Part shown: piece by piece, positions 21,285-46,107 of the stretch
Numbering within the stretch: position 1 is the stretch's first letter
Layout: each line of letters begins with the position of its first letter
Source: Neocallimastix sp. 'constans'
Lineage: Eukaryota
DNA: 64,000 nucleotides
Direction: 5' to 3'
Assembly: GCA_050613775.1 (NCBI GenBank)
Contig: JBODTK010000102.1
Coordinates: 496,001-560,000, forward strand
Notes under the pieces: model-generated
What the model was told of the DNA's origin: nothing
The model's input: only the letters and a program-made list of their open reading frames with translations
Database searches by the model: none
Translations under genes and position numbers: made by a program

Positions 21285-21287
21285 AAT

Positions 21288-22250: not shown

Positions 22251-22256
22251 CAAATT

Positions 22257-22712: not shown

Positions 22713-22716
22713 AATT

Positions 22717-23629: not shown

Positions 23630-23633
23630 AATT

Positions 23634-24554
23634 TGTAAGAATCTCTAATTAAAAAAAAGATATTTTATAAGAGTTTTCTTTTATTATTTTTTTTTTTATT
23701 AATTCTATATAAAGTTTGAGTTTATTATTAAATAATATAATAAAGAAAAAATACTTATATTGGGGTAAACTAAAGTAGAGAAAGTAGAGAAAGTAGAGAT
23801 ATTATATATGAATATATATATATATTATTTAAAAAAACACAAAATTTTTTAAGAAAAAGTATTTTTTAGAAAATTTAAATTTTAAGTAATTATTATTTTA
23901 ATATTTCTTTATTAATATTTTATTTAATAATAATAACTCTTGATTTCTGAAAAAGCAGAAATCAATCGTTATTTTATACTTTTTTGTTTATTAATTAACC
24001 TTAATTTATAATATTTATTTATTTCTGTCATATGTTTATTTAATTAATAATTATTTAATATAAAATATTAATTATTTCTTGGCTAAGCTATTGATTGCTA
24101 GTCAGCTGTTGTATCTTCAGGAAAAGACTAGAAGAAAAACCTGAAGATTTCTTAATTGTAATAATATTAGAACGAATTATATTTCAAGGAAATTTATTAT
24201 TTAATTTATCTAATAATATTGTAAAAATAATTTTAAAACATTAAATATTAAATCTATTATTTAATTTATTTATTATTTAATATTATTATGAAAATAATTT
24301 TAAAACATTAAATATTAAATCTATTATTTAATATATTTATTATTTAATATTATTATGATAATTGTTTGAAATAATTTTAAAACTTTGACTATTAAAGTTT
24401 GCTATTAATTTATGGCTTAAATTTTAATTTATCATAATTTAATAATTTTGTATATGAGTCAGCGATATTAATAATTTACCTAAAATTAATTTAATAAAGT
24501 TTAGTAATAAAATAAATGATAAATATAATAGAAAATATTTCTATATTTCTTACT
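23634..24554 (-). mobile_element. Solo LTR, family H (self-priming superfamily)
   Basis: TGTAAGAA...TTCTTACT termini; ATAATAACTCTTG near 23930; flanks AAATT/ATATT; internal ~68-bp duplication at 24220-24380. Confidence 0.75.
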
Positions 24555-24559
24555 ATATT

Positions 24560-25159
24560 TGGTACAGGACTTTTGAAATTGATGGATGTATAATAATATA
24601 TTGGTAAATAGATAGTGGACATATTAAAAGTACTAGAAACTTATATAATATTTATTTATTTATTTATTTACTATTTATTAATTTATTTATTTAAAAATTT
24701 ATTTAACTATATATTTATTAATCCATTTATTTATTTGTTCATTTATTTATTTATTCCTCCATCACATAAAAAAAAGAAAAGAGAGATTTAAAATAATATT
24801 ATTACAAAATATTTTATAAATTTTGGTAAAACATTGATTAGTTAAAAATAATTTTGTGTAAGAATAAAATAATAATAAAATTTTAGATATGAATATTGAT
24901 AATAAAAATAATAAAAAGTTTACAATATAAAATAAAATTTATCAAATGTATAATAAAAATATAATAAGAATATAATAAAATATTTATTTTATATCAAGAT
25001 ATTAATAATTAATAATATATATATTTATATAATAGTAAAAGAAATATTGATAAATTTAATAAAGATAATAATTAATTAATAAAATAGATTTAAAACATAC
25101 TTATATGGAGAAATGTTAAAATTATTATAATTTAAGGTATTTGAGTAAATACCGTATCA
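24560..25159. mobile_element. Solo LTR, family I
   Basis: TGGTACAG...CCGTATCA termini, TATT 4-bp TSD. Confidence 0.72.
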
Positions 25160-25163
25160 TATT

Positions 25164-26137
25164 TGTAAGAAATAATAATTATTTATTAAAAATAATTAAT
25201 ATTTCTTAGTCTTTATAATTATTGATAATAATTATAAATTTATTTAAATTATAATTAATTCATACATTGAAATATTATTATCAAATTTATTATAATTATA
25301 ATTATTCATACACTTAAATAATATTAGAAATTTTATTTAAATAATTATTATATGTACACTTATTAATATTATTAATTTTATTTAGTCATTCATTTAATTA
25401 TCAAGTTAATGTAAACATTAGTTTTATTTATTTTTTACATTGTACATTTAGAAGAACAATTAATAAGTTTCTGTATTTTTTATAATTCTGTATTTTAGCT
25501 TAAAGATAGTTTTATTTTAATAAGTTTAGATTAGATTTTAAAACTAATATTTAGAAAAATAGAATAATTTAGATCATTCCGGTTTTTATTGATTTTTCCC
25601 TTTTATTTGATGATCTAAATTAAAATTTAGAAAATCGATATATTAAGGTTATATCCAAATATAAAATAATATATTTGGTTTTACTTAATATATACGATGA
25701 TCAATATGAATAGAATATCGATCAAAAAACTTATCTAGTTTTTTCTTCTAATCTTTTTCTAGATAAGATATTTTTAAGATTAGAAAACCCTTTTTATTTA
25801 ACCTTATTTCCATAAAAAAATATAAATAAGGCTTTTGATTTCCCTTTAAGAAATCAAGAGTTATTATTATAAAAATATAGTTTATAATAGTAACGATTTT
25901 ATATTTTGAACTTTAACAAATTAATAAAATATTTTATTCAAAAAACATACTTTAAAAATTAAATTTATACAAATCTTTCTTCCTTCTTATTTTTCGTGTT
26001 ATTATTATAATTAATTTTATAATAAACACCACAAATATTTAGGTAAAACTTTTTTTTATTTTCTCAACTTAATGAATTAATCGTTAAGTTGAAGTTAATA
26101 ATCATATTAAGTAATAGTACTTAGTATGATTATTGCA
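25164..26137 (+). mobile_element. Solo LTR, family J (self-priming superfamily)
   Basis: TGTAAG...ATTGCA, perfect ATATT TSD, TATAAATA plus hairpin plus AAGAGTTATTAT at 25821-25870. Confidence 0.85.
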
Positions 26138-26143
26138 ATATTA

Positions 26144-26969
26144 TGGTACAGAATTGAAGATTATAAAAAAAAATAATATATTCTAATAATTAAAAATTTA
26201 ATTTTTCACTAACAAAATAAATATTATTTTAACTATTCTAATATAAATAACTTAAATAAATATTTTAATAAAATTTATCTCTAAATTAAAACTAAATTAC
26301 CTAACAAATTTAAATATTTAAACTAACCAAAATTATTTTTATCCTTAACTATAATAAAACACAAAAACAAAACTAATCGATTTAACTAGAGAACAATTTA
26401 ATTTTATTTAATTATTTATTTAATTATTTATTTATACTAATACTAAATATTTACTATTTCATTCTCGAAAAATTAAAAGAAAAATATAAAAATAAAGTTG
26501 AAAGAAGAGGAAGAACTAAAGTATTGTTTTACTTTGTTCTTTTTATATCTTTAAAACATTTATTTGATTGGAGTAAAAATAAAAATATAAAATATAATGA
26601 AAATATAATAACAAAAAATATAATAATTTTATAATAATAAAATATAATAAAATATAACTTTAATATAATATTTAATATAAGATAATAATAAAAATATAAT
26701 AAGGTATAATAAAAATTTTATAATAAAAATATAAAATAATAATAAATATAATTTTAATTATTTATAATAAAATATCTAATTGTTTACTATTACAATATTA
26801 AATAAATACAATTAATACATTATTTTAAATAATTTAGTTATTTATACATATTTAATTTCCTTATTATATATTTTAATACTTTAATATTTTATTCTTATTT
26901 ATTTATTAATTAATCTTTATAGTTTATTTAATTTTTATTTATTTTTTATTTATTATTTGTATCGTAACA
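26144..26969. mobile_element. Solo LTR, family C variant
   Basis: TGGTACAG...CGTAACA; shares the GAACTAAAGTATTGT..ACTTTGTTCTT and TGATTGG motifs with 26971-27745. Confidence 0.78.
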
Positions 26970-26970
26970 A

Positions 26971-27745
26971 TGGTACAGAACTGAAGAATTTTTATCATAA
27001 AATAATATATTCTAATAATTAAAGAAAATTTTAAATTCTATTCTATTATTCTAATCTATTATTCTAATTTAAAAATCTAAATACTAAACAATTTAAACTA
27101 AAATAAATTATTCAAAATTAATTTAACCTAATATAAATAATTTAACTAACAACTATAATTATTAAAACTATTAACCAAAAACTAAAAACCTTTAAACACT
27201 TAATACAAAACTTAAATTATTTTTAATTCTAACTTTATTTAAAATAAACTATTTTATTTTTATTATTTAATCTATTCTAACTTTATTATTTAAACTATAC
27301 TAATTTATTATTTAAACTATTTAAATTTAATTATTTAAACTAATTTTATTTTAATTTAACTATCTAAATTTATTATTTAAACTCGAAAATATCAAAAGAA
27401 TAATATAATAATAAAGTTGTAAGAAAAAGAGAGAGAACTAAAGTATTGTACTACTTTGTTCTTTTTTATACATTTAGAATAGTTATTTGATTGGATTAGA
27501 ATAAAAATTTAATAATAAAAATTTAATAATAAAAATTTAATAATAAAATATAATAAACTATTAAAATATTATTAAGTATTACAATATTAAATAAAAATAA
27601 TAATTAATACATTTTCTAATTTATTATAACTAAATTTATAATTATTTTAATATTTTAATATTTATTATTTAATTCCACTAATATTAATAATTTTTAATCT
27701 TTAATAATTATATATAATTTTAATTATTTTATTTGTTCCGTAACA
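26971..27745. mobile_element. Solo LTR, family C
   Basis: TGGTACAG...CGTAACA; collinear with 15068-15690. Confidence 0.82.
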
Positions 27746-27748
27746 ATT

Positions 27749-29588
27749 TGATACGGGCTGGGGTTGAAACACTAAGATATTCAAAACAAAAAATAAATAT
27801 TAACACATAACTATAAAAATAAATTTGGAAACAAGAAAAAAAATTAAATTTTAAAATATTCTTTATTTAAATTTAAAATTAAAATTATTTGTTCCCCGTA
27901 TTAAAAAGAAAGAAATTTATTCTTCTTTTTATACCTTTATTTTAATACATTTTATTTATTATTAATATATTCTTTATAAAAAAAACTATTATAACTACTT
28001 TATTTTAATTTTTAACTATTATTTTAAATTATTTTTTAAAAAAAAAAAAATAACATTTATTAAATTAAAATATAAAAAATTAATTTAGAGATTGTATCAC
28101 GAAGGGCATTCCGGGCGGTAGCTTCTTGATATTGTTTTTCAGAGAGAGAATTATACAGAATTGATATTTTCTGTATTTTAGATCATTTTTTTATTATTGA
28201 AATTCTGTATTTTAGTTCATTTTTATTTTTAATAAAGATTTAATTTATTTTTGATTTTTGATTTATTTTTAGTTTATATCAAAGGTTTAGAAAATATTAT
28301 ACCGAAACTTATAATTCTGTATTTTATATCAAATATTTATTGAAATAGGTTTTTATTATACTTAATATAAAAATAAGAATTAGTAATGATTTAAATATTA
28401 TATAATTTTTAATAAGAATATTTAGTAATAATTTTTATTATATTTAATATTAATAAAATATTTAATGATTATTTTTATTAGATTTGATATTAATAAAAGA
28501 TTTTAATAAGAATATTTAATAATAATTTTTATTATATTTAATATTAATAAAAGAATTTATAAGAATATTTAATAATAATTTTTATTATTTTTGATATTAA
28601 TAAAAGAATTTATAAGAATATTTAATAATAATTTTTATTATAAAAGATTTTAATAAGAATATTTAATAATAATTTTTATTATATTTAATATTAATAAAAG
28701 ATTTTTATTAGAATATTTAATAATAATTTTTATTATATTTGATATTAATAAAAGATTTTAATAAGAATATTTAATAATAATTTTTATTATATTTAATATT
28801 AATAAAAGATTTTTATTAGAATATTTAATAATAATTTTTATTATATTTGATATTAATAAAAGATTTTAATAAGAATATCTAATAATAATTTTTTTATTAT
28901 ATTTGATATTAATAAAAGACTTTAATAAGAATATTTAATAATAATTTTTATTAGATTTAATATTAATAAAAGAATTTTATAAAAATATTTAGTAATAATT
29001 TTTATTATATTTAATATTAATAAAAGAAATTTATAATAATATTTAATAATAATTTTTATTATAAAAGATTTTAATAAGAAAATTTAATAATAATTTTTAT
29101 TATATTTAATATTAATAAAAGATTTTTATTAGAATATTTAATAATTTTTATTATATTTGATATTAATAAAAGATTTTAATAAGAATATTTAATAATAATT
29201 TTTATTATATTTAATATTAATAAAAGAATTTTATAAGAATATTTAATAATAATTTTTATTATATTTAATATTAATAAAAGATTTTAATAAGAATATTTAA
29301 TAATAATTTTTATTATATTTAATATTAATAAAAGAATTTTATAAGAATATTTAATAATAATTTTTATTATATTTAATATTAATAAAAGAATTTTATAAGA
29401 ATATTTAATAATAATTTTTATTATATTTAATATTAATAAAAGAATTTTATAAGAATATTTAATAATAATTTTTATTATATTTGATATTAATAAAAGATTT
29501 TAATAAGAATATTTAATAATAATTTTATTTTATTATTATTAAGAGTATTTAATAGGAAATACAAGGTATTTAGTGACACCCCGTATCA
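27749..29588. mobile_element. Solo LTR, family D, with internal minisatellite expansion
   Basis: TGATACGGG...CCCGTATCA 9-bp inverted termini; collinear with 20195-21049; AATT TSD. Confidence 0.88.
28410..29525. repeat. ~54-55 bp AT-rich tandem repeat, about 20 units
   Basis: Repeated AATAAGAATATTTAATAATAATTTTTATTATATTTAATATTAATAAAAGATTTT. Confidence 0.9.
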
Positions 29589-31630
29589 AATTGTAAGAAA
29601 TTACTTATAAAATTAATTATAAATAATTTCTTAACTACGAATTAACACTAATTATTACTAATTAACATTAATTTGAGAAAATAAAATTAAATATAATTAA
29701 ATAAATATAAAATAATATAAATAAATAATTATACTTAACTTAAATATACGATAGAGTTTATTATAGAAAGTTTATAATAAACAATAACACAAAAGGAATA
29801 AAAGACACAAATATTTATAAAATACGTTTTATTAAAAAGGGTTTTGTTTATTAATTAATTATTTTATTTGAATTATTATTTATTATAAAAATTCTAAAAT
29901 AATAACTCTTGATTTCTTGAAGAGAACTCAAGAGAATCAAAAATATATAAATTAATAATTAAATATTATTGGTTAAAATAAATACAATAATTTAATGTAT
30001 TAAATTAATGTATTAAATAAGAAAGATAGATAAATTTTATAAATTTATCTAAGTTTCTTACATTGCTCCCTTTACTTAATGAATTTGTATAAATTCATTA
30101 TCATAAAAGAAGTAGTAAGTTTAAAATGAAAATTATAATTAACCAAAAAAAAAATATAAAATTATATAATTTATTGAAAGTTTTGCTAACCTTAACTTTT
30201 TTACATCTAGAGAAAAGATTAGCAGAAAAACTCTAGACGAATCAATATTAAGTAAAACCAATTAACTTGGGAAAACCTTAATATTGTTTTCTAACTAATA
30301 TAAGTGAATAAATAATTATAAATTAAATAAAATAAATATAATTACTAAGTGTATAAATAAATATAAAGTTAAATAAAATGACTATATTATTAAATGAATA
30401 AATAAATATTAAATTAAATAAATTATAATAACTAAGAAATGTAAATGAATTATTAATAAATTTATTTGAATTTCTTACATTGCTCCTTTTCATTTGAATT
30501 ATTCAATGAAAGAAGAACAATTTAAGAAATAATAAATTAAGAAATATTAAAAAGAAATAAAATTTAAATAAAATTAAAATAAATATTTAATTGCAATTTC
30601 AATTTAAAAAATTGAAATTTAAATTTTGAATTAAAATTTATTTTAAATAAATAATTAAATGAACAATAATTTATAAATTTATATTATATATTATATATAT
30701 TTTGTATTAATAAATAAATAAATAATGATAATAATTAATTTTACAATATATATATATTGTATATTATTCATTAAATGAATAAAAATAATAATAATAATTT
30801 GAATTTTAAATATAATTTTTCATATATATTAAATAAATAAATAATAATAATAATTTATAATTTTATATTATATTTATCTTTATATTATTCATTAGATGAA
30901 TAAGTAAGTAATAATTTAAATTATACATATGTATTATTTATTAAATAAATAAATAATAATATTTTATAATTTTTTTTTTTTTTTTTTTTATATATATTAT
31001 ATTTTATATGTATAATTATACAACAAATAAATAAATATAATTTATAATTTAATTATTTACTATTATTACACAGTAAATAAATAAAAGATCATATTTTTAG
31101 TTTATTTACTTTATATAATATTTATTTTTATTATTCAATAAACAAATGAATAATATTAATTTATAATTTTATATTATAAATATTATGTATATCTACTTAA
31201 ATAAATAAATAAATAATAATTTAAAATTTTATAATTTTTATATTATATTTTATTTATAATTTTTTTTTAGTGTATAAGTTTATACATAAATATGAGAATT
31301 ACTCTCATAATATTACATGTAGAAATTAAATATATAATTAATAATAAATTAATTTTTAGACACATTAATGTTTATATAATTAAATAATAATTTAATTTAT
31401 TTATATTATAGATATTTTATTATTTATTAATATATTTTTTATGAAAATAGAACTAAAGAAAAACATATTCATTTAGAAAGCTTTTATACATGAATATTAT
31501 TTATTAAATTAATTGATTGGTTAATATAAAATGAAATATAGTAAATATATTTTAACACTCCTCCTCAAATGTAACTTCGTTTCAATATTACATTTGTTTA
31601 ATTTTAACTATATTTTTTAGAATTAAAATT

Positions 31631-32947
31631 TTAAATCCTCAATTTTATATAATAAAGAATTTCTGAAATTTTCATAAGAGTGTTATTCAGATATTTAGTG
31701 AATCCATCGGCCAAATTATTTTGAGATTGAATATATTCTAATTTTATAAAATTTTTATTTATTATTTCTCTAATATAATGAATTCTTATATCAATATGTT
31801 TTGTCTTCGGATTAATGGATTGATTTTTGCTGTTGAATATGGCAGCTTTGTTATCTATTTTTATTTTAATACATTTAATATTATAATATAATTCTTTCAT
31901 TAAGTTTAAATACCAAATGCAGTGCTTGCCACATTCACTCAGACTATAATACTCCGATTCTGCAATAGATGTTGACACACAGTGTTGTAGCTTGGAACAC
32001 CAGCTAGTTGGTGCGTTGCCCATGGTTACTAAAAAACCTGTTGTTGATCTTCTGGTTTCAGTATCTCCTGCAAAGTCGGCATTAACAAAGGCTTCTATTC
32101 CTAGTTTCCTTGTATAGTTTATCCCGTAACTCGTTGTTACTTTAAGATATCTTAGTATTCGTACGACATTGTTCCAGTCTTCCATATTCGGATTATTTGA
32201 TTTTCGTGCTGCTTTACTTACCGAAAATAGAATATCAGGTCTGGTGCATATAGCAATGTAGAGTAAATTTCCTATTGCACTTCGGTAGGTAGTTTGATTA
32301 AACTTTATATTTCTAAGTTTGTCGTCCGTAATTGGTTTTGTATTCCTTAATGGTTTTTCATTATTCATATTGATTTTCTCTAAAACCTCTATAATGTATC
32401 TTCTTTGATGCATAAAATATCCATTTTTGTGTTTAAAAAATTTTATTCCGATAACGAAATCCACATCGCCAATTTCTTTTATTTTATATTTTCTTTTGAA
32501 ATATTCTTTTATAATTTTAATTTCATTCTCTTTTCCAGCGATTAAAATATCTTCAACATAAATACCGACGATACATAAAATGTTTTTATTTTTATCATTT
32601 TTTACATATATACATGGTTCACTTACCATTCTTCTAAGTCCTATTTTAGTTAAGAATTTATTAATTTCTTTATTCCATTCTCGTCCGCTTTGTTTCAGAC
32701 CATATATAGCTTTGTTTATTTTCCAGAATTTTCTATTAAAATCTTGGTGACCTTCTGGAGGTTTCATATAAATATATTCACTTAATTTGGTATTAAGATA
32801 AGCAGCGTTTATATTAATTTGTTCTATATTAAAATTATTTTGGGCAGCAATTGAAGTTAAAATTCTGATAGAGTCGTGTTTTAACGTTGGTGTAAAAGTA
32901 TCATGAAAATCTATTCCAAATTCTTGGGTAAAACCTCGTGCTACCAA
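31631..32947 (-). CDS. pol: Copia reverse transcriptase / RNase H fragment (probably inactive)
   Basis: LVARGFTQ, KAIYGLKQSGREW, YVED (YVDD expected), FVNADFAG (D to N), STSIAESEY, TKHIDIR, LADGFTK. Confidence 0.9.
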   Translation of the reverse strand: MVARGFTQEFGIDFHDTFTPTLKHDSIRILTSIAAQNNFNIEQININAAYLNTKLSEYIYMKPPEGHQDFNRKFWKINKAIYGLKQSGREWNKEINKFLTKIGLRRMVSEPCIYVKNDKNKNILCIVGIYVEDILIAGKENEIKIIKEYFKRKYKIKEIGDVDFVIGIKFFKHKNGYFMHQRRYIIEVLEKINMNNEKPLRNTKPITDDKLRNIKFNQTTYRSAIGNLLYIAICTRPDILFSVSKAARKSNNPNMEDWNNVVRILRYLKVTTSYGINYTRKLGIEAFVNADFAGDTETRRSTTGFLVTMGNAPTSWCSKLQHCVSTSIAESEYYSLSECGKHCIWYLNLMKELYYNIKCIKIKIDNKAAIFNSKNQSINPKTKHIDIRIHYIREIINKNFIKLEYIQSQNNLADGFTKYLNNTLMKISEILYYIKLRI

Positions 32948-33395
32948 TCTTGCTTTTCTTTTTGCTATCTTGCCATTCGCATTTCTTTTATATTTGAAAA
33001 TCTATCTTGAGGAAATTACATTTGCATTTTTGGGTATATATTTAATTGTATTAAATACATTTAAGTTTTTCATATTACTTAATTCTTCATTTACTACATT
33101 AATTCATTTTTTTCTATCAGTAAAATTTTGAATTTCTTATAATTTTCTGATTCTCTTAAAGTATTTATTGTCTTTCTTCTTTTGTTATTATTTTCATTTT
33201 TTATATTCATAGTTGTTTTTTTATTATTGTTTTCGATATTATTTAATTTAAATGAATTGTTATTAGTCAATAAAGTATTTATAATTTCGTTTCCATTACG
33301 TTGAATATAATTTTTATTGATAATTGTGTTGTCATTTACTCTGCTGCTTTCAATATTATTATTGTTATTGATTATTTTATTGGCTGTATTATCAT

Positions 33396-35126
33396 TTATT
33401 TATTATTATTATCTTCTCTATTTTGGCTATTATTATTATTTTCAATATTATTATTATTAATTCTAATTTTATTATTACTATTATTTGTATTATTATTATT
33501 AATATTATTTGTATAATTATTATTATTATTATTTATATTATTATTATTGATAAAATTATTATTGGTTATGTCATTATTATTAATTTTATTATTGTTTATA
33601 TTATTATTATTATTTGTATTATTATTAATGAAATTATTGTTATGATTATTATTATTGATATTTTCATTGTTATTGTTACTATTATTGTTACTGTAATTAT
33701 TATTTCTTTGTTTTTTGTTATATTTTCTTTTATTCTTAGAATTATTTTTATTGATTATATCTTCGTATATATTTTGTATATTGCTATTATTTAATATTGT
33801 TGAATTTCTTAGGATGTTTTCTGAATTAAAAAATTCATTAGAACTTGGATAATCAATTTTATTTAATCTTTGTTGAATATTATGATTAATGTTATATGTA
33901 TTGGTATCGTATGTATTTTTATTATAGTATGTATTATATGTATTATTTCCCCTGATTTCGTGATCCGGAATAAAATTGGAAAATTCAGGTGAGCATTCTT
34001 TAAGATAACTGTTTCCAGGATTGGATTCGAAAAAAGCAACAGATCTAGATAGGATTATTTTATTAGTAGTAATATCTAAAATTTTGTTAGCTGATGGATT
34101 TTCAGAGTATCCTAGAAAAATCCCTGGTTTAGTATTGTTATCGATTTTAGATCTAAAGACTTTAGGAATAAAGAAATAAACTTTGCATCCAAATACTTTA
34201 ATATTTGAATAGTTGACCTTTGTTTTGTTAATTATTTCATAAGGTATTTTCATATTTATTCCTTTGTGTGGAATGCGATTATGTATATAATTAGCAGTAG
34301 AGGTAGCATCTTCCCAAAATTGGTGACTAAGTTTAGAGTCATTCAGCATAGCTTTGGCGGAATTAATTAGGGTGCCATTGAATCGTTCCACCCTTCCATT
34401 TTGTTGTGGGTTATATGGTACAGTTAGCTGATGTTTGATACCATAAGATTTAAAGAATAAATTAAAATTATTATTGCAAAATTCTGTACCATTATCCGTT
34501 CGAATATATATAATTCTAGTATTATACTTATTTTTAATACTTAAAAACCAATTGTAAAATGAGTTAAAGGTGTCACTTTTAGATTTTAAAAACAAAGTCC
34601 ATCCATAGCGTGAATAGTCATCGAGGATTGTAAAAAGATATTTGTTACCATAAAGTGATTCAGGAAGAGGTCCAACCAAGTCCATGTGAAGTAATTCAAA
34701 TATATGTTTCGACTTATTTATTGCTTGCTTATATGGTTTTTTTTTAAGTTTTGAATTCATACAAATTGGGCATTGATTAACTGGTGTATTAAGTTTTAAT
34801 AATTTGTTTTTAATATGACTAATATCAAAATGACATAATCTTCTATGCCATAAATTTAATATTTTTGCTGCATTTGGTGTAGTGAAATTTATTTCTAAAT
34901 TATTATGTTGATTGTTATTATTATTGAGATTTATTTTATTATTGGAAAACCAAATTTTAAATGTATTAGTCTTGGTTGCAGTGATGTTAACTATTCTTTT
35001 ATCATTGCTATCGTAAATGATTGAATATGATTTATTATTTGAATTATTAAAAACAATTTTATAATTTTCTTTTAGTAATTTGCATATAGATATTAAATTT
35101 TTATTGATGGCTGGAGAGTAGTACAC
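33396..35126 (-). CDS. pol: Copia protease C-terminus, GAG-pre-integrase, integrase, SH3-like domain, then Asn-rich linker
   Basis: LWHRRLCH, HMDLVGP, IRTDNGTEF, PQQNGRVER, FGCKVY, GIFLGY; stop codons separate it from RT. Confidence 0.92.
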   Translation of the reverse strand: MYYSPAINKNLISICKLLKENYKIVFNNSNNKSYSIIYDSNDKRIVNITATKTNTFKIWFSNNKINLNNNNNQHNNLEINFTTPNAAKILNLWHRRLCHFDISHIKNKLLKLNTPVNQCPICMNSKLKKKPYKQAINKSKHIFELLHMDLVGPLPESLYGNKYLFTILDDYSRYGWTLFLKSKSDTFNSFYNWFLSIKNKYNTRIIYIRTDNGTEFCNNNFNLFFKSYGIKHQLTVPYNPQQNGRVERFNGTLINSAKAMLNDSKLSHQFWEDATSTANYIHNRIPHKGINMKIPYEIINKTKVNYSNIKVFGCKVYFFIPKVFRSKIDNNTKPGIFLGYSENPSANKILDITTNKIILSRSVAFFESNPGNSYLKECSPEFSNFIPDHEIRGNNTYNTYYNKNTYDTNTYNINHNIQQRLNKIDYPSSNEFFNSENILRNSTILNNSNIQNIYEDIINKNNSKNKRKYNKKQRNNNYSNNNSNNNNENINNNNHNNNFINNNTNNNNNINNNKINNNDITNNNFINNNNINNNNNNYTNNINNNNTNNSNNKIRINNNNIENNNNSQNREDNNNK

Positions 35127-35223
35127 CTCATTAAGTATTACTTCATTGTTGTTTACATACTCCTTAAATTTTCCTTTATGGACAGCTGTAATTATTTGTC
35201 CATTAGCTAGATTAATTTCTTCA

Positions 35224-36435
35224 TTACATTTTTTTTATGTCTATTAGAAGATTAAGATTGCTTGTGATATTGATTGAAGCACCGGAGTCCAAAATCCAAC
35301 ATGAAAGAAAGTTTTTGTCACTATCTTCATTTAAAAATTCTTTTTCAATGTTGCAGTAATTTAATTCAATATTATTTTCTGTATTACAATCTTTAGTAAA
35401 GGCATCTGCGTATATTGTGTCATAATTACTTGAAGAGGCATCATTAGTGTTCACATAATTAATATCGTTTTGAAATTTTCTTTTGTTTTTAGTTCTTTTA
35501 TTAAATTTATTTTTGTTTTGATTTTTATATAAATTATTTTTTCTGAATTTACATTCATAGAAGTAATGTCCTGTTCTTCCACAATAGTTACATCTTCCAC
35601 TACTCCTTTTGAGACTTTTTCTTTTACCTTTAGTTCTATTATTGTTTCGATAATTCTTGCTCTTTCTTGTTTCAGCATTGAAGAGAACATTATTGTTGTT
35701 TTCCTGAATGGAATTTTTTTCTTTTAAATTAGATAAAACGATATTAGGGATGATTTCCTTAACATAGGTGCAGCATGATTCCCAACTCTTATGTTGAAAG
35801 ACGTTTATCCACCTTAGATCTTCAGGTAAGCATCTATTTAGAATGCCGATTTTTGTATTTATACTAAGGTCATTGTCAATTTTCTCAAGTTCGTCTATTA
35901 AGTTTTGCAAATTGGCAATGAATATATTTATATCGGTCTTGGTGTCAAACTTCATTGTTTCAATTTTGTTTTGGATTTCGATTTTTCTTCTTTCCTTGCT
36001 TTTGGTAAACGATTCTTGGAAGATGTTCCAAATTTGAAAAGCGGTCTTTTCATTTCCATTTATTAGTTTTTGTGTTTGTTCTCCAAGCCCATTTATGATA
36101 ATCCATTTGGCCGTGATGTCGTTAGTTATATCAATGTTTTTAGTGTTCTTTTCATAAACTAACGAACTATCAAATTGATCCTCCGGGTAATCTGTTAATT
36201 CTTCTCTTATATCTCTCTTTCTTAACTTCTTTACAATTGGATGAAGGACATATTTGGTTAATTTATTTATTGTTAGCAAATACAGAATTTTTCTTCTCCA
36301 ACCAGGGTAGTTTTCTGTATTTAGTTCAGTAATTTGGTTGAAATTTTCGGAATAATTAAAGGTTATTCCGTTATGTGTAATATCTTCTCCGGTGAGGTTG
36401 ATAACTTGTTCTTGGTTTCTTCTTCTTCCAGCCAT
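35224..36435 (-). CDS. gag: Copia Gag with CCHC zinc knuckle and protease N-terminus
   Basis: CNYCGRTGHYFYEC zinc knuckle; WILDSGAS protease motif. Confidence 0.92.
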   Translation of the reverse strand: MAGRRRNQEQVINLTGEDITHNGITFNYSENFNQITELNTENYPGWRRKILYLLTINKLTKYVLHPIVKKLRKRDIREELTDYPEDQFDSSLVYEKNTKNIDITNDITAKWIIINGLGEQTQKLINGNEKTAFQIWNIFQESFTKSKERRKIEIQNKIETMKFDTKTDINIFIANLQNLIDELEKIDNDLSINTKIGILNRCLPEDLRWINVFQHKSWESCCTYVKEIIPNIVLSNLKEKNSIQENNNNVLFNAETRKSKNYRNNNRTKGKRKSLKRSSGRCNYCGRTGHYFYECKFRKNNLYKNQNKNKFNKRTKNKRKFQNDINYVNTNDASSSNYDTIYADAFTKDCNTENNIELNYCNIEKEFLNEDSDKNFLSCWILDSGASINITSNLNLLIDIKKM

Positions 36436-37859
36436 TTCGAGTACTTTTGAAATTTAAAATTTTTATTATTGTTTTAAATTAATTATATATTTTTTTTAAA
36501 ATCTCAATTAATAAAAATATTTTAGTAGTTTAAAAAAAAATATTATAATATTTAATTCTGTTAATTTTTATTAATTTATTAGTATTAATTTGTTATATTA
36601 AAAATTCTCATTTTAATTTTTACTTAAATTTGATTTCATTAATTTGTTACTATTTTTATCTCATTTAGTATTGTAATACCAAACTTTAATAAATAAGGCA
36701 TTTATATTATTTAATTTATTATTAATTTTGATTAAATAAAAGGTGATTATTATTTGATTAGATTTTTTATTTTTTATTCATTGATTAGTATTATAAATTC
36801 ATTTTAATATATTTGATATATTATATAATGTAATTTATTCAAAATTTTATTTAATACATATAATTAGTTTTTTTATTATTACTTTAATTTATTTATATTT
36901 TTTTTATATTAATAATATTTTAGTTTCAAATTTATCTAAATACCATCAGTTGACTATTTATTTCTCATCTTGATGATATTAGATTTAATTTAATTTAATA
37001 TTAGTATCATCAGTTGACTATTTATTTCTCATCTTGATGATACTGTGTTTATTTTATTTTAATATTAATATCATCACTTGACAATGAATTTTTCATCTTG
37101 ATGATATCATTTTTATTTTCTTTTAATATTAATATCATCAGTTGACAATAAATTTTTCATCTTGATAATATTAATTTTATTATTTAACAATTTAACTATA
37201 ATTTTATTTATTGTTGATTAAAAAAATCTTTATTTCTTATGGATTTGTTTCGGTAATAAATAAAATACAATAAATAATAAAAATAATAATTTATTAGTTC
37301 TTTGGTTTTATTGAAAGGTAAAAATAGAAAAATTTAATTTATATTATAACTTAACTTTATTTTAATTCAAACTCAATTAGTAGATTGAGACTCTTAATCT
37401 TTTAGACACATTAATGTTTATATAATTAAATAATAGTTTAATTTATTTATATTATAGATATTTTATTATTTATTAATATATTTTTTATGAAAATAGAACT
37501 AAAGAAAAACATATTCATTTAGAAAGCTTTTATACATGAATATTATTTATTAAATTAATTGATTGGTTAATATAAAATGAAATATAGTAAATATATTTTA
37601 ACATTATTTTATTATTTTATAATTATATATTAATAAATAATTTAAATAATTAAATTTTATAATTTTGTCAACAAATAAACCATAATAAATGGTTTAACAG
37701 AAAGCATTATCATTCAATCTAAATTGAACGGCTTCTGCTACTGGTGTTAGTGTTACACCTGTTGACCATTCTACATGTTAAATTATTATTTATTTATAAT
37801 TATTTTATTTATTTATTTATTTATTACTTACTATTTGTTATTTATTTATTTATTATTTA

Positions 37860-38215
37860 TTTATATTATTATTATTATTATTATTATTATATTATTATTA
37901 TTATTAAAATTACTTATTATTTGAAATTATTTAATTATTAAAAATAAAAATTTCAAATACTTATCTTTTTTAAATTATTTATTTATTTATTTAATTTATT
38001 TTGTTTATTTTTGTTTTTGTTTTTTGTTTTTGTTTTTGTTTTTTGTTTTTGTTTTTTGTTTTTGTTTTTGTTTTTATTTTTGTTTTTGTTTTTTTTGTTT
38101 GTTTGTTGCTTATTTTATTTTATTTTATTTTATTTTATTTTTTTTTTTTTTTAATAAGAAAATATATATATATAATGTATATAATGTATATAATGTATAT
38201 AATGTATATAATGTT
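37860..38215. repeat. Simple repeats (ATT)n, (TTTTTG)n, (ATAATGTAT)n inside element K
   Basis: Directly visible; they explain the low-complexity ORFs at 37744-38269. Confidence 0.9.
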
Positions 38216-39809
38216 ATATATAAAAACAATTATATAATATTAAAATATAATATAAATATAATATTATAATAGATAAATATGTTATATAAAATAAAATAAA
38301 GTAAAACAGTTAGTATTTAATATTGTTAATTTTTATGAAATTTATAAAGACTTATTTTTAAAAGTAAATAGGCAAAGTAAACAGAATAAGTGTTGTCATA
38401 TTATTATAAAGTTATAATGTTTTATATATATAATAATAAAGAATTGTTAGTCAATGTAATAATAAATTAAACAAAATAAATAATATATATATGACATAAA
38501 CAAACATAAACAATGAAAAGAAAAATAAAAAATAAACAAAAAAAAAAATTTATAAATTTAAATTGAGAGAAAGAAAAAATTTCGTAAATAATATAAAATG
38601 AATTTATTTAATTTAATTATTCCATTATAATTATAATTATTATTTTTTGTTATATTCATTTTAAATTATTTATAAAATATTTTCTTCCTAAAAAGAAGAG
38701 TTATTATTGTAAGAAATTACTTATAAAATTAATTATAAATAATTTCTTAACTACGAATTAACACTAATTATTACTAATTAACATTAATTTGAGAAAATAA
38801 AATTAAATATAATTAAATAAATATAAAATAATATAAATAAATAATTATACTTAACTTAAATATACGTTAGAGTTTATTATAGAAAGTTTATAATAAACAA
38901 TAACACAAAAGGAATAAAAGACACAAATATTTATAAAATACGTTTTATTAAAAAGGGTTTTGTTTATTAATTAATTATTTTATTTGAATTATTATTTATT
39001 ATAAAAATTCTAAAATAATAACTCTTGATTTCTTGAAGAGAACTCAAGAGAATCAAAAATATTTAAATTAATAATTAAATATTATTGGTTAAAATAAATA
39101 CAATAATTTAATGTATTAAATTAATGTATTAAATAAGAAAGATAGATAAATTTTATAATAAATTTATCTAAGTTTCTTACACAAATGTAAGAATCTATAA
39201 TTATTTTTAAATAAAATAATTATATTTTCTTAGTTAAGTTATAATTATAACTTTATTTAATTATATAATATTTATTCATTTAAATATTATTAATAATTTA
39301 TTAAACTCAATATTAAATAATCATTAATTTAATACAACAAATTTATTTAATTAATTATTATTTATACATTTATAAATAATTATAGTTTATTTAATTATAT
39401 ATTCAATTATTAAATTTATTAGTCTTAGTTTATTTATTTAATTAAATTGTAAACAAATATATTATGTATTCTAATATGTACTTAATAATGTATTCTGTAT
39501 TTTGTTTATTAATATCATTATTATGTTATTTTCCTTATTTGTAAATTTATGATTTTATGGTCGAAATATCTTTTATTATTTTATTCTTTTATTTTCGATC
39601 AATTAAATTAGATTAGCTAATCGGTCAATTAGGGTTTTTCCCAATCACTTTTTAAAAGTAATTGGTTTTACCTAATTGATACGATGATCGATATGGATAG
39701 AATATCGATCAAAAATCTTATCTAGGTTTTTCTCTCTAATCTTTTCCTAGATAAGAGATTTGTTAAGATTAGAAAACATTTTTTAATTTAACCTTATTTT
39801 TCAAAAAAG

Positions 39810-39856
39810 TATAAATAAAGCTCTTGAATTCTCTTTGAGAAATCAAGAGTTATTAT
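39810..39856 (+). promoter_or_regulatory. LTR TATA box, hairpin and putative transcript 5' end / self-primer
   Basis: TATAAATA at 39810-39817; CTCTTGA..TCAAGAG inverted repeat at 39821-39849; AAGAGTTATTAT at 39845-39856. Confidence 0.65.
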
Positions 39857-40150
39857 TATAACAATTATAATATAGTAATAACATTAATAAATTTTTTATA
39901 TTTCTATTTTAATAAAGTAAGTTTTAATAAAAAACAAATTTAAAAAAAAAATAAAATAAAATAATCTTTTCTCTTTGACTATTTTGTGTTATTAGTTTAT
40001 TATAATTAGTTATAATAAACTCTCTCTTATAGAAGATAAGTATATTTATCTTTTTTTTGTTTTCTCAATTTAATAATAATTATTATTTAGTTATTATTAA
40101 GTTGTAGTTAATAATTTAATTCTAATTAATTTTATAATTAAATTATTACA

Positions 40151-40162
40151 ATAATAACTCTT
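40151..40162 (+). promoter_or_regulatory. Primer-binding site, self-priming type
   Basis: ATAATAACTCTT follows the 5' LTR directly; no TGG; exact complement of 39845-39856. Confidence 0.78.
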
Positions 40163-40950: not shown

Positions 40951-40954
<4 letters not shown>

Positions 40955-42384
40955 AAAACAATAGTGATATTCAAATTAATGAGCCTTTAGCAGACACACC
41001 ATCACCAATTTCACAGTCCATTACGTATAACGAAAATGCTTCTAAACTAATCTCTGCTATTACAGATTTCATACCTGCCTTCTTTTCGCCAAATGGAGTT
41101 CTTCAGAAAGAAAGTGATGTGAAAAACCAACCAAGTATTAGGGAAATAATTATCCATAGTGAAGACTTTATTAAGACTCATCCAAATACATTCAAAGATG
41201 ATGAGTCAAAAAACTCCTTTGTTATCAATAAACTAACAGGAACTGCAAGAAGATGGGGTCTCTCTTTGCTAACTGATGGGACTCTAAAGAAGTTAACATT
41301 TGAAAAATTCAAGAAACTTTTGTTAGAAAATTTCGATTCAGGTATTGAAAGGAAGCAGAAATACGTTATTATGGACAAATTGTGGAAGCTTAAACAATCT
41401 CAACTTGGTAGTGTCGCTGAATACACTATCGAATTCCGTAGGTTGGCGGGACGTCTTGGATGGCCTGACGAAGTGCTCATTGACATTATTGGAAAAGGAC
41501 TTGTGGATAAGGTGCGCGAAGAATTCGACAAGGTTGAGAAACCATCTACCTTGTTTGAAGCTACGAACACTATAATTGGAATAGATAAAAAATGTTATTT
41601 GGAAAGTAGTTTAAGGAATAAGACTAAGAATTTCAAGAAGAATCATAAATCCTTTCAAAAGAAGCGCAGAGAACTCACCAAAATCGAGAACTACAAGAAA
41701 CATTTTCACAATAAAAATAAACCTAAAAATGACATTCTCTCAGCCAACTATACTTCTAATGGAAACCCAACAATCACTACTGCCTTTTACTTAAATATAA
41801 ATGATAAAAATATTAGAACAAACTTTTTAATTGACTCCGGATCTGCTAGAAGTTTCATTTGTAGAAATTTCGCTAATAGTCACAAAATTCCATCATTAGG
41901 TTTATCCTCTCCAATTAATATCCAACTCCCAAATAGTAAAAGCATGAACATTAAACAAACTACAAAACCGCTTAAACTCAAGATTATGGACCATACAGAA
42001 CGTTTTGAATTTTGCATCGCAAACATAGCCCTCCAAGGAATCAATGGTATTCTTGGAAGAGATTGGCTCTCAGTTCATAATCCTTTCATTGATTACAAGA
42101 AAAATAAAATATTCTTTTTAGGTAAATACTGTGGTTCACATTGCCCTTCTTCAAGGAAATTCAAGTTCGCAAACCAAAACTCTAATTTCACTGCAACTAT
42201 GTTCGACAATCCCACAATTAACAATGCCGATCATGATTCTATCATTCCTGAATCAATCCCAGAAGATACTGTTTGTCATTCAGACTTGAGTGACTCCGAT
42301 TTATGTGCCGCTATGCCAACGAAAATAGACTCCGAAGGGAAAAAACCGAGGCATAAGAGAGATTCTCGACAAATACTATTCTGA
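40951..42384 (+). CDS. gag: Gypsy Gag (retrotrans_gag) plus aspartic protease
   Basis: KLTGTARRW, LKQSQLGSVAEYTIEFRRLA; FLIDSGSARSFI and ILGRDWL protease motifs. Confidence 0.93.
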
Positions 42385-42445
42385 TCTCATAATAGTATTT
42401 GAGAAAAATGAAGCTGAGAAGTTACCACCACACAGGGAATATGAT

Positions 42446-45043
42446 ATGTCAATTGATCTTATTCCTGGTGGCCAATTATTCTTCGGTCCAATCTACTCTC
42501 TTACCGTTCCGGAAATGAAAGCCTTGAAAGAGTATATTCAAGAAAATCTTAGAAAAAAGTTCATACGAAAATCAAAATCACCAGCAGGCGCTCCAGTTAT
42601 ATTTGTATTGAAACGCGATGGAACTCTCAGATTATGTGTCGATTATCGACGCTTGAATGCTATTACAATCCGTAATAGTTACCCGATTCCAAGAATAAAT
42701 GACTTAATGGAATCTTTTAAAGGTGCAATGATATTTACCCGTCTTGACTTAAGATCCGCCTACAACCTTATAAGAATTAAAGAAGGGCATGAATATCTTA
42801 CAGCGTTTAGAACTCCTTTAGGGCATTTCGAATATCTCGTAATGCCTTTCGGGCTTAGAAACGCGCCTTCCGTTTTCCAACGTTTCATTCATGATATACT
42901 TAACGACTGTATTGGTATTTTTGTTAGAGTTTACCTTGATGACATAATTATCTATTCCAAATCCTTAAAAGAGCATATTAACCATGTAAGAACTGTTTTA
43001 AAAATTCTTATTGATAATGGATTATATGCTAAATTAGAGAAATGTGAGTTTCATGTAACTGAAACCACATTCTTAGGCTTCACAGTTTCCAATAAAGGGC
43101 TAACTATGGATAAAAATAAGGTCAAATCAGTACTCGATTGGCCAAGTCCTAAAAATGTTAAAGAATTGCAAAGTTTCCTTGGATTATGTAATTTCTATAG
43201 AAAATTTATAAAAGACTTTGCAAAAAACATGGAACCCCTTCGCAAACTTTTAAAAAAGGAAAATCCTTTTATCTGGGATAAATCAGCTGAAGATGCTTTT
43301 CAAAAGTTAAAGGACTCTTTTAAAGCTGATGATTTTTTAATCTTTCCTGATCCTGATAAAGAATTTATAGTTGAAACCGATGCAAGTGATTTTGCAGTCG
43401 GATGTATACTTTCCCAGGTATCTAGTGAAGATAATCAATTGCATCCTGTGGCATTTCACTCCAGATCCCTTAATAAAGCAGAAGCTAATTATACTATCTA
43501 TGATAAAGAGCTTCTTGCTATTATTACTGCATTTGAAACCTGGAGACATCATCTTGAAGGTGCCAAGTTCCCAGTTCAAGTAATAACAGATCATAAGAAT
43601 CTGCTATACTTTAAAAAACCACAACATTTAAACCAACGACAAATTCGTTGGAGCCTTTTCCTGTCTAAATTCGACTATAGGATTGCGTATAGAGCTGGCT
43701 CAAAAAGTGGAAAGCCTGATGCTTTATCCAGGAGACCAGATTATAAATCCACACATCCCGTGGAACAACAATCCTTAATTAATAAGAATGCTTTTTGTTG
43801 TGCTACTAGCGATAATATAAGTAAACTTATTAAAGCACAGAAAGAAGACCAATATTGTCAAAATATCCTTTCTAAATTAAGAGATCAGTCGAAAAAACTA
43901 AATAGTTCTCTATTTACTCTCGTCGAGGGAATTCTTCATTTCCAAAAAAGAATTATTGTTCCATCTAGTCTCAGGGCATGGATTTTAAAATCCTTCCATG
44001 ATGCGCCTACTAGCGGCCACCAAGGGATAGAAAGGACCTTTGAAAAACTTAAAAGGTTCTACTGGTGGCCAAACATGAAGAAAGATGTTTCTAACTATGT
44101 TCTTTCGTGCAATGTCTGTTCCCGAAGTAAGATTCGGAGACATAAGCCATATGGTAAGCTAATACCACTTCCCATTCCTACAAAACCCTGGGAAGTAATT
44201 GGCGTGGATTTTATAGTCTCTCTGCCTTCTTCGCAAGACTGCACATGCATCATGATTGTTTCTGATCATTTAACAAAAATGGTCCATTTAGTGCCCTGCT
44301 CCGACGTTCCTTCCGCCGACCTAACCGCAAAATTACTGCTCTTCCAAGTCTTTAAACACCATGGTTTTCCAAAAGTTATTGTTTCCGACCACGGCTCTCA
44401 ATTCTCCTCCCAATTCTGGACCTCTTTATGTGATGCTATTAGAGCCAAACCAAGATTAGCAACGGCCCATCATCAGCAATCAAATGGTCAAGTGGAACGT
44501 GCCAATGCTGTTATTGAACAATATCTTCGTTGTTATTGTTCTTCCGCCCAGAATGAATGGTGCTATTATCTTCCCTTATGTGAAATGTCTTATAATAACT
44601 CCATCCATAAATCAATTGGCCAAACTCCTTTTCATGCTAACTATGGTTTCGATCCTAATTGTGTTATTGACTCCCCTCCTGTCTTACTAAGAGACACAGC
44701 TTCTATCCTTACTAGAGACTGGTCGTCACACTTTAATGCCCTCCGGCAACACTTAATAAAAGCCAAAGAAGATTTTAAGAAATATGCTGATAATAAAAAA
44801 TCTATAGGCCCTGACTTCAAAGTTAATGACTTGGTTATGCTTAAAAGATATTATTTTACAAATGAACCGTCCAAAAAGCTATCTTCTCAGTATCTTGGTC
44901 CATTTAAAATTATCGAAAAGGGGGAAAGAATGAATTACCGCTTGGAACTTCCAGAAAACTTACATCTTCATCCGGTATTTCATATCTCACAATTGGAGCC
45001 TTATACAGAGCGGAATAAAGAATTGAAAGAGCCATCATCGTAA
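42446..45043 (+). CDS. pol: Gypsy Pol: reverse transcriptase, RNase H, integrase (frame open from ~42329)
   Basis: LRLCVDYRRLN, MPFGLRNAP, VYLDD, ETDASDFA, HHCC (HDAPTSGH..CNVC), VDF/SDHGSQF/GQVERAN, GPF motif. Confidence 0.96.
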   Translation: MSIDLIPGGQLFFGPIYSLTVPEMKALKEYIQENLRKKFIRKSKSPAGAPVIFVLKRDGTLRLCVDYRRLNAITIRNSYPIPRINDLMESFKGAMIFTRLDLRSAYNLIRIKEGHEYLTAFRTPLGHFEYLVMPFGLRNAPSVFQRFIHDILNDCIGIFVRVYLDDIIIYSKSLKEHINHVRTVLKILIDNGLYAKLEKCEFHVTETTFLGFTVSNKGLTMDKNKVKSVLDWPSPKNVKELQSFLGLCNFYRKFIKDFAKNMEPLRKLLKKENPFIWDKSAEDAFQKLKDSFKADDFLIFPDPDKEFIVETDASDFAVGCILSQVSSEDNQLHPVAFHSRSLNKAEANYTIYDKELLAIITAFETWRHHLEGAKFPVQVITDHKNLLYFKKPQHLNQRQIRWSLFLSKFDYRIAYRAGSKSGKPDALSRRPDYKSTHPVEQQSLINKNAFCCATSDNISKLIKAQKEDQYCQNILSKLRDQSKKLNSSLFTLVEGILHFQKRIIVPSSLRAWILKSFHDAPTSGHQGIERTFEKLKRFYWWPNMKKDVSNYVLSCNVCSRSKIRRHKPYGKLIPLPIPTKPWEVIGVDFIVSLPSSQDCTCIMIVSDHLTKMVHLVPCSDVPSADLTAKLLLFQVFKHHGFPKVIVSDHGSQFSSQFWTSLCDAIRAKPRLATAHHQQSNGQVERANAVIEQYLRCYCSSAQNEWCYYLPLCEMSYNNSIHKSIGQTPFHANYGFDPNCVIDSPPVLLRDTASILTRDWSSHFNALRQHLIKAKEDFKKYADNKKSIGPDFKVNDLVMLKRYYFTNEPSKKLSSQYLGPFKIIEKGERMNYRLELPENLHLHPVFHISQLEPYTERNKELKEPSS

Positions 45044-46034
45044 AAGGAGCAATGTAAGAATCTATAATTATTTTTAAATAAAATAATTATATTTTCTTAG
45101 TTAAGTTATAATTATAACTTTATTTAATTATATAATATTTATTCATTTAAATATTATTAATAATTTATTAAACTCAATATTAAATAATCATTAATTTAAT
45201 ACAACAAATTTATTTAATTAATTATTATTTATACATTTATAAATAATTATAGTTTATTTAATTATATATTCAATTATTAAATTTATTAGTCTTAGTTTAT
45301 TTATTTAATTAAATTGTAAACAAATATATTATGTATTCTAATATGTACTTAATAATGTATTCTGTATTTTGTTTATTAATATCATTATTATGTTATTTTC
45401 CTTATTTGTAAATTTATGATTTTATGGTCGAAATATCTTTTATTATTTTATTCTTTTATTTTCGATCAATTAAATTAGATTAGCTAATCGGTCAATTAGG
45501 GTTTTTCCCAATCACTTTTTAAAAGTAATTGGTTTTACCTAATTGATACGATGATCGATATGGATAGAATATCGATCAAAAATCTTATCTAGGTTTTTCT
45601 CTCTAATCTTTTCCTAGATAAGAGATTTGTTAAGATTAGAAAACATTTTTTAATTTAACCTTATTTTTCAAAAAAGTATAAATAAAGCTCTTGAATTCTC
45701 TTTGAGAAATCAAGAGTTATTATTATAACAATTATAATATAGTAATAACATTAATAAATTTTTTATATTTCTATTTTAATAAAGTAAGTTTTAATAAAAA
45801 ACAAATTTAAAAAAAAAATAAAATAAAATAATCTTTTCTCTTTGACTATTTTGTGTTATTAGTTTATTATAATTAGTTATAATAAACTCTCTCTTATAGA
45901 AGATAAGTATATTTATCTTTTTTTTGTTTTCTCAATTTAATAATAATTATTATTTAGTTATTATTAAGTTGTAGTTAATAATTTAATTCAAATTAATTTT
46001 ATAATTAAATTATTACAACAAATTAAAACAAATT

Positions 46035-46107
46035 ATCCGAATAGTGTAGTGGTTATCACGTTTGCTTTACATGCAAAAGGTCTCCGGTTCGAACCCGGGT
46101 TCGGGTA
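46035..46107 (+). tRNA. trnV-UAC: tRNA-Val (anticodon UAC), 73 nt, intronless
   Basis: Acceptor ATCCGAA/TTCGGGT, D-arm GTGTAGTGGTTATCAC, anticodon arm TTTGC-TTTACAT-GCAAA, T-arm TCCGG-TTCGAAC-CCGGG. Confidence 0.95.

What the first reader, a model, noticed from the sequence alone, without database searches (positions are those of the whole stretch)
39810..40162. Self-primed reverse transcription: PBS is complementary to the LTR, not to a tRNA, and the primer is shared across families
Seen: the PBS ATAATAACTCTT (40151-40162) is the exact complement of AAGAGTTATTAT (39845-39856), 35 nt from a TATAAATA box. Element K shows the same pair (38696-38707 and 39015-39026). The 12-mer with its CTCTTG..CAAGAG hairpin recurs in otherwise divergent LTRs (~12995, 14200, 19690, 21578, 23930, 25856, 29899). 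A second near-complement, ATAATAAACTC (40012-40022), is conserved in U5. Known: S. pombe Tf1 primes with the first 11 nt of its own mRNA. Inference: a self-priming lineage that targets tRNA genes, with a possible alternative-pairing RNA switch.
Basis: partly seen in the sequence, partly recalled or inferred. Interest (0 to 1): 0.7.

Follow-up and report, generated by a model that had tools for sequence, protein, structure and literature searches.

The report
Self-priming retrotransposons stacked before a tRNA
A young jumping gene, likely from a gut fungus, has a primer site that pairs with its own terminal repeat and so likely starts copying itself without a tRNA; it is the newest of 13 insertions stacked just upstream of one tRNA gene, a combination already known from fission-yeast Tj1.

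Summary
Element J (39186-46017) is a young Ty3/gypsy retrotransposon (LTRs differ at 1 of 965 bases). The 12 bases after its 5' LTR lack TGG and are the exact complement of AAGAGTTATTAT, 35 nt after TATAAA in the LTR (6 of 2000 shuffles match this). Element K repeats the pair. A 17-mer spanning the primer is the only long word shared by all 8 LTR types. A U5 stem next to the PBS shows compensatory changes at 12 of 17 pairs, as the Tf1 mechanism needs. The second near-complement closes a covarying long stem with the RNA's 5' end and holds an AATAAA; a switch is possible but not shown. tRNA targeting is well supported: 13 TG..CA elements peel off one by one, each ending 13-17 nt upstream of tRNA-Val, 10 with exact target duplications. 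Start site, cleavage and host tRNAs could not be tested. Self-priming is the norm in the Tf1/sushi group, where the RT falls, and Tj1 already combines it with tRNA targeting. New here: a chromodomain-less clade in a probable gut fungus, and the deep stack.

The parts
39186..40150 (+). 5' LTR of element J (965 bp, TG...CA)
   Evidence: 1 mismatch to the 3' LTR; target duplication ACAAA at 39181-39185 and 46018-46022
39810..39817 (+). TATAAATA, candidate TATA box 35 nt before the primer
39819..39851 (+). U3/R hairpin whose 3' arm is the start of the primer; could form only in the 3' copy of the RNA if transcription starts near 39845
   Evidence: z -5.05; 87% of cells paired, 2 of 15 pairs with change on both sides: weak covariation
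39841..39857 (+). 17-mer invariant in all 8 LTR types; contains the predicted self-primer 39845-39856
40002..40023 (+). 3' arm of the long R stem, ending in ATAATAAACTC (40012-40022, contains AATAAA); pairs with predicted RNA nt 2-6 and 9-19
   Evidence: 119 of 128 cells paired; nt 16-19 28 of 32 paired, 2 of 20000 permutations as high
40109..40148 (+). U5 inverted-repeat stem ending 2 nt before the PBS
   Evidence: 12 of 17 pairs with change on both sides in 6 LTRs, 0 of 500 shuffles
40151..40162 (+). PBS, no TGG, complementary to 39845-39856
40951..42384 (+). gag-protease ORF
   Evidence: (Retrotrans_gag, Ty3_capsid, RVP_2)
42329..45043 (+). RT-RNase H-integrase ORF in the next frame; no chromodomain
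45042..45052 (+). polypurine tract ending in CAA
45053..46017 (+). 3' LTR of J
46035..46107 (+). tRNA-Val(TAC) gene, the inferred integration target
   Evidence: Rfam 60.4 bits; only B-box match in the window
29592..39181 (-). Element K: 474/471-bp LTRs, same primer and PBS, no gypsy ORF, a copia element nested inside; target duplication CAAAT
19425..29588 (.). Eleven older stacked TG..CA elements: four primer-bearing solo LTRs with 5-bp duplications (25164-26137, 23634-24554, 21288-22250, 19425-20188) and seven others with 4-bp duplications
13525..14504 (+). Older primer-bearing solo LTR (86% to J); another primer-bearing LTR around 12994, ends not fixed
16281..16842 (+). LTR of a different family (N) with PBS ATAGTAACTCTT (16831-16842) and a decayed complement (9 of 11) at 16556-16566, again 35 nt after a TATAAA

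Best explanation
J is a young Ty3/gypsy retrotransposon whose PBS is complementary to its own LTR and which likely primes reverse transcription with the 5' end of its own RNA, as Tf1 does; it and its relatives sit stacked 13-17 nt upstream of a tRNA gene, likely through tRNA-directed integration. Steps: (1, inferred) Pol II starts at or up to 5 nt before 39845. (2, predicted, with covarying flanking stems) R-U5 folds into a long R stem and U5 hairpins, bringing nt 1-12 onto the PBS. (3, inferred from Tf1) the element's RNase H cuts near nt 11-13 and the released piece primes minus-strand DNA at the LTR end. (4, shown as a pattern, mechanism inferred from Ty3) integrase docks on the Pol III machinery and inserts at a fixed distance, pushing older insertions away. 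The primer is likely invariant because the same bases must also serve the start site, the U3 hairpin and the R stem.
For: PBS without TGG at offset 0 with a 12-nt complement in the own LTR in 2 of 2 full-length elements (6 and 2 of 2000 shuffles); 7 of 7 solo or 3' LTR flanks give only 6-9 nt. Polarity is right for priming: the primer's 3' end abuts the LTR's terminal CA. U5 stem: 97% of cells paired, 12 of 17 pairs covary. TATAAA at -35 in 5 of 8 types. In the separate N family the best PBS complement also lies 35 nt after a TATAAA in 2 of 3 LTR copies, with a C-G pair where J has U-A. RT tree: J's clade is sister (support 1.0) to a chromodomain-bearing clade that holds an Orpinomyces protein, inside a group (0.998) with Batrachochytrium and lizard proteins. 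Tf1's PBS begins ATAAC and its PPT ends CAA (PMC11042837); J's begin ATAAT and end CAA. Targeting: 13 elements, ends 13-17 nt from the tRNA, duplications exact in 10 and one mismatch in 3; order favours the tRNA-side element as later at 5 of 12 junctions, the reverse at 0, ties at 7.
Against: No start-site, cleavage or cDNA data: the runs offered were contigs only. Host tRNAs could not be searched. Only two elements, with identical primers, carry the exact pair, so primer-PBS covariation rests on decayed N copies, and the third N copy shows no such complement. The third Tf1 duplex (sequence 3' of the PBS with the LTR) is no better than shuffles (116 and 268 of 300). In J the primer:PBS helix is favoured only when the folded RNA ends within about 20 nt of the PBS (P 0.99 falling to 0.0-0.04). 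K has no TATAAA at -35. Targeting is shown at one tRNA gene, with element ends picked by eye.
Confidence: 0.85

Rival explanations
1. The PBS binds a host RNA in trans (a tRNA fragment or other small RNA), and the LTR 12-mer is conserved for another reason.
For: Families J, K and N have nearly the same PBS, and J's primer would pair with N's PBS with one G-U; N's own LTR has no exact complement. Half-tRNA priming exists in some copia lineages (PMC6317226). Host tRNAs untested.
Against: No TGG. An exact complement in the own LTR at a fixed distance from TATAAA would be left unexplained. Two N LTRs keep a 9-of-11 complement at the same spacing. The lineage is the one known for self-priming.
Confidence: 0.07
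2. Self-priming is right, but the stack reflects insertion next to earlier LTR ends or into an AT-rich hotspot, not Pol III targeting.
For: One locus only; 7 of 12 junctions cannot be ordered. Tf1 cDNA can insert next to existing elements without integrase (PMC11042837). Contigs show LTR-to-LTR junctions elsewhere without showing a tRNA.
Against: Each element has its own target duplication, a sign of integrase action. The distance to the tRNA stays 13-17 nt whichever way the previous element points. All 5 ordered junctions put the later element on the tRNA side. The 5-bp and 4-bp classes keep separate offsets, 15-17 and 13-14 nt.
Confidence: 0.08
3. The conserved stems act at DNA level (integrase or promoter palindromes) or only in polyadenylation, and have no part in priming.
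For: Inverted repeats covary in DNA too. The second near-complement contains AATAAA, a conserved LTR motif in Metaviridae (PMC3601003).
Against: G-U pairs are tolerated in all three stems. The U5 stem is internal to U5 and ends 2 nt from the PBS in all 6 LTRs aligned. AATAAA occurs 2-7 times per R-U5, but only the copy that pairs with the 5' end has a conserved context.
Confidence: 0.1

Closest known systems
Tj1 of Schizosaccharomyces japonicus (PMC4600332)
   Same: Ty3/gypsy; PBS complementary to the predicted mRNA 5' end; 5-bp duplication; inserts 5-11 bp upstream of mature tRNA ends (here the duplication ends 10-12 nt upstream for the primer-bearing class).
   Different: Tj1 has a chromodomain, 244-bp LTRs, a gag stop codon and one fixed orientation. 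J has no chromodomain, 965-bp LTRs, a frame change after the protease, and the stack holds both orientations.
Tf1/Tf2 of S. pombe and the Tf1/sushi group
   Same: Self-primer geometry, PBS directly after CA, a U5 duplex next to the PBS, PBS starting ATAA and PPT ending CAA; Tf1 and Tf2 also share one PBS.
   Different: Tf1 targets Pol II promoters. Its pretzel has two PBS-adjacent duplexes; only one is found here, plus a primer-adjacent R stem. The loop is about 306 nt long.
Ty3, Tca8, Tyl3/Tyl6/Ylt1, DGLT-A (PMC5911963, PMC5006619)
   Same: Gypsy elements placed within a few bases of the tRNA start site; Ty3 in both orientations.
   Different: DGLT-A has a TGG-type PBS; tRNA priming of Ty3 is recalled. 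None is from this lineage.
HIV-1 polyA hairpin (PMC2645353, abstract)
   Same: An R-region stem holds AAUAAA and represses 5' polyadenylation.
   Different: Here the masking strand would be the primer itself; function untested, and folding shows only slight unmasking in the 3' context.

Membership tests
Ty3/gypsy LTR retrotransposon | TG..CA LTRs, target duplication, PPT, order gag-PR-RT-RH-IN | tested here: met
   best PDB match Ty3 Gag-Pol, E 4e-141
Tf1/sushi self-primed elements | PBS lacks TGG and has 10 nt or more complementary to the own 5' LTR within 0-5 nt of its end (criterion of PMC6317226) | tested here: met
   12 nt at offset 0 in J and K
Tf1/sushi self-primed elements | Primer lies at the mRNA 5' end | not testable with these tools
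   Only contigs available; TATAAA at -35 is indirect
Tf1/sushi self-primed elements | Duplex between sequence 5' of the PBS and U5 | tested here: met
Tf1/sushi self-primed elements | Duplex between sequence 3' of the PBS and the LTR (third pretzel helix) | tested here: inconclusive
   Best duplex of the 20 nt after the PBS is no better than shuffles; a short helix would not be detected this way
Tf1/sushi self-primed elements | RNase H cleavage releases the primer | not testable with these tools
   RNase H domain present; activity needs an assay
Tf1/sushi self-primed elements | RT phylogeny inside fungal/vertebrate chromoviruses | tested here: inconclusive
   Nested among chromodomain-bearing proteins with Orpinomyces, Batrachochytrium and Podarcis hits (117 of 160 sequences kept, midpoint root). 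No Tf1, Tj1 or sushi reference was in the tree; P0091 is a Thanatephorus protein named after Tf2
Chromovirus (structural sense) | Chromodomain at the integrase C-terminus | tested here: not met
   No Pfam hit; absent from the top 20 homologues; the ORF ends just after the SH3 domain. Read as a loss in this clade
tRNA-gene-targeting gypsy elements (Ty3/Tj1 type) | Insertions within about 20 nt upstream of tRNA genes | tested here: met
   13 insertions at one tRNA gene; other genes not testable
tRNA-gene-targeting gypsy elements (Ty3/Tj1 type) | Integrase contact with TFIIIB/TFIIIC | not tested
tRNA-primed elements | PBS starting TGG, complementary to a tRNA 3' end | tested here: not met
   PBS starts ATA; tRNA fragments untested

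The most novel reading that the evidence does not exclude
The first 12 bases of the RNA form a three-way switch. On the nascent RNA they pair with ATAATAAACTC and mask the 5' poly(A) signal. In the particle they move to the PBS and are cut off as primer. At the 3' end a U3 hairpin captures them and frees the poly(A) signal. This couples priming to polyadenylation control, explains why diverged families keep one primer, and may let autonomous and non-autonomous families prime each other.
Probability: 0.25. Interest if true: 0.65.

Novelty: new member of a known kind. Interest (0 to 1): 0.38.

Why it matters
It extends Tf1-type self-priming and Ty3/Tj1-type tRNA targeting to a chromodomain-less clade in a probable anaerobic gut fungus, where five literature searches found no such report. 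The stack is a dated record of at least 13 integrations at one Pol III gene by two classes of element. The diverged LTRs give rare covariation evidence for the leader structure that self-priming needs. The core mechanism and the combination are both already described.

Tried and rejected
No host genome is held, so host tRNAs and other insertion sites could not be searched. RNA contigs from 4 runs cover U3 and U5 patchily and show no start or poly(A) site. A 16-mer scan of viral contigs gave 87 stretches; among all 242 loci then held, none had the motif on both strands and only low-complexity matches to the LTR core appeared, so they were taken as chance. Metagenome, GTDB and viral scans gave close relatives of the coding region (L001, L002, L007, L168, L169) without LTRs. 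The assembly behind L168 has no LTR-like DNA. Unmasking of AAUAAA in the 3' context was weak: mean unpaired 0.04-0.10 in the 5' context, 0.04-0.23 with 40 nt of U3, higher in 7 of 8 types. The third pretzel duplex was not found. Type s23 was left out of both pair counts because its stems are offset. The peel could not be continued left of 19425. The nested copia's LTR end was not fixed, so it gave no tRNA-PBS control. Primary Tf1 papers were not held. Earlier-findings look-ups by place and sequence were empty.

Full report
Anatomy. The finding is the 5' LTR and PBS of a 6.8-kb Ty3/gypsy element, J: LTRs 39186-40150 and 45053-46017 (1 mismatch in 965), duplication ACAAA, PPT ending CAA, gag-protease and RT-RNase H-integrase ORFs. 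The two ORFs are in different frames, as in a 99.7% identical metagenome contig, while three close homologues are single ORFs. The window is very AT-rich (9-37% GC per 2 kb). No genome is held. The host is inferred to be an anaerobic gut fungus: runs that hold the DNA include animal feces metagenomes, and the nearest named protein in the tree is from Orpinomyces.

Observation. The 12 bases after the LTR are the exact complement of 39845-39856; 6 of 2000 LTR shuffles do as well, and 2 of 2000 for K. Seven solo or 3' LTR flanks give 6-9 nt. K lies on the minus strand (29592-39181), has no gypsy ORF and holds a copia element. Eight LTR types carry the primer; their identity to J is 95, 86, 72, 58, 56, 48 and 34% with gaps counted. 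The only word of 10 nt or more common to all eight is the 17-mer 39841-39857 and its parts. In 3 of 4 runs laid on the 3' LTR, the bin holding hairpin and primer has the highest summed contig depth, a rough sign that it is widely shared.

Structure. The predicted leaders fold far better than shuffles (z -5.1 for J, -6.9 for K). Three stems recur. (a) A U5 stem ending 2 nt before the PBS: 97% of 102 cells paired, 12 of 17 pairs changed on both sides, 0 of 500 shuffles, slid controls 34-50% (6 LTRs, s23 and s12 left out). (b) A long R stem: nt 2-6 and 9-19 pair with the ATAATAAACTC region in one register in all 8 types (119 of 128 cells); position 18 is C-G, A-U or G-C in different families. The exact 11-mer occurs 8 times in the window, always in these LTRs. 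(c) The U3/R hairpin folds in each type tested but covaries weakly, since one arm is invariant. The third duplex described for Tf1 was not found.

Switch. With the RNA ending 5 nt after the PBS, primer:PBS pairing has P 0.99-1.0. With longer RNA the 5' bases move to the R stem in J, while K flips back and forth with length. The two states lie within about 4 kcal/mol. The lower R stem stays in both states, so nt 12/13, where a cut is needed, is a helix junction. The masked motif contains AATAAA, as in the HIV-1 polyA hairpin (PMC2645353, abstract), but adding U3 unmasks it only slightly. A switch is allowed, not shown.

Family N. A different LTR (16281-16830) is followed by a PBS one base from J's. 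Its best complement (9 of 11) lies exactly 35 nt after a TATAAA in 2 of 3 copies, with C opposite the PBS's G where J has U opposite A. This is an independent though decayed instance of the same geometry. It weakens, but does not exclude, a shared host primer.

Targeting. J ends 17 nt before tRNA-Val(TAC). Removing J and one duplication leaves K 16 nt away; repeating this works for 13 TG..CA elements down to 19425. All ends fall 13-17 nt from the tRNA; duplications are exact in 10 and differ by one base in 3 (ends chosen by eye, two corrected). The six primer-bearing elements have 5-bp duplications and 15-17 nt offsets; the other seven have 4-bp duplications and 13-14 nt. A two-sided order test favours the tRNA-side element as later at 5 of 12 junctions and never the reverse. 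J's LTRs differ by 1 base, K's by 2 plus a 3-nt gap. Contigs of other runs show LTR-end to LTR-start joints with about 5 nt between and a J-like end 3 nt from a 4-bp-class terminus, so stacking recurs elsewhere; those contigs do not show a tRNA.

Lineage. In an RT-RNase H tree (117 of 160 sequences, midpoint root) J's clade lacks a chromodomain and is sister to a chromodomain-bearing clade, within a group holding Batrachochytrium and Podarcis proteins. No true Tf1, Tj1 or sushi sequence was available, so membership of Tf1/sushi is likely, not proven.

What is known (passages seen unless noted). Tf1 primes with its first 11 bases after RNase H cleavage (PMC7175516). The pretzel is shared across Tf1/sushi (bioRxiv 2022.12.06.519325). 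[quoted passage not shown] Tj1 is proposed to self-prime, and 13 of 17 new insertions lay just upstream of tRNA genes (PMC4600332). tRNA targeting by gypsy elements is listed for several yeasts and Dictyostelium (PMC5911963; PMC5006619). Tf1 and Tf2 share one PBS (PMC11042837). Also seen: PMC3601003 and PMC2864245. The primary Tf1 papers were not held; no supplements were read. Searches found no report on such elements in gut fungi; the library lacks most subscription journals.

Verdict. Real, most likely Tf1-type self-priming with tRNA-gene targeting (0.85). It is a new member of a known kind, with a clear integration stack and a testable leader structure. Interest 0.38.

Noticed in passing
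window 19425-46017: Seven elements with 4-bp duplications and different termini share the tRNA-upstream site with the self-priming LTRs; their coding lineage is unknown and may be a second, independent tRNA-targeting group.
   Followed up: partly
window 26144-27745: Element M consists of two 72%-alike LTR-like units one base apart (junction near 26970) under one duplication; it may be two insertions.
   Followed up: no
window 30063-30490: K has a second PPT plus U3-like start about 400 nt upstream of its 3' LTR, suggesting its short LTR arose from a new PPT. K lacks TATAAA at -35 and any gypsy ORF.
   Followed up: partly
window 42329-42384: gag-protease and pol are in different frames, also in L001, whereas three close homologues are single ORFs: a family-specific frameshift or an inherited lesion.
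   Followed up: partly
window 31349-37603: Copia element nested in K; the bases after its 5' LTR show no TGG, but its LTR end was not fixed. Related copia copies lie at about 600-4274 and 46469-47846.
   Followed up: no
window 16281-17830 and about 48600-53400: Family N: decayed gypsy elements of another lineage with a near-identical PBS.
   Followed up: partly
window 8034-10354: Decayed gypsy pol (52% to J's RT) that falls in another chromodomain-less clade in the tree.
   Followed up: no
L168, L169: A bacterial MAG in GTDB holds short, high-coverage contigs of this retrotransposon clade (68-74% to J), most likely fungal contamination; one is annotated as a bacterial hypothetical protein.
   Followed up: partly
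window 39560-39790: The 3' part of U3 holds several further inverted repeats conserved across families, seen by eye and not counted.
   Followed up: no
window 40305-40658: Three tandem copies of a ~113-bp unit with poly(A) runs in J's leader.
   Followed up: no
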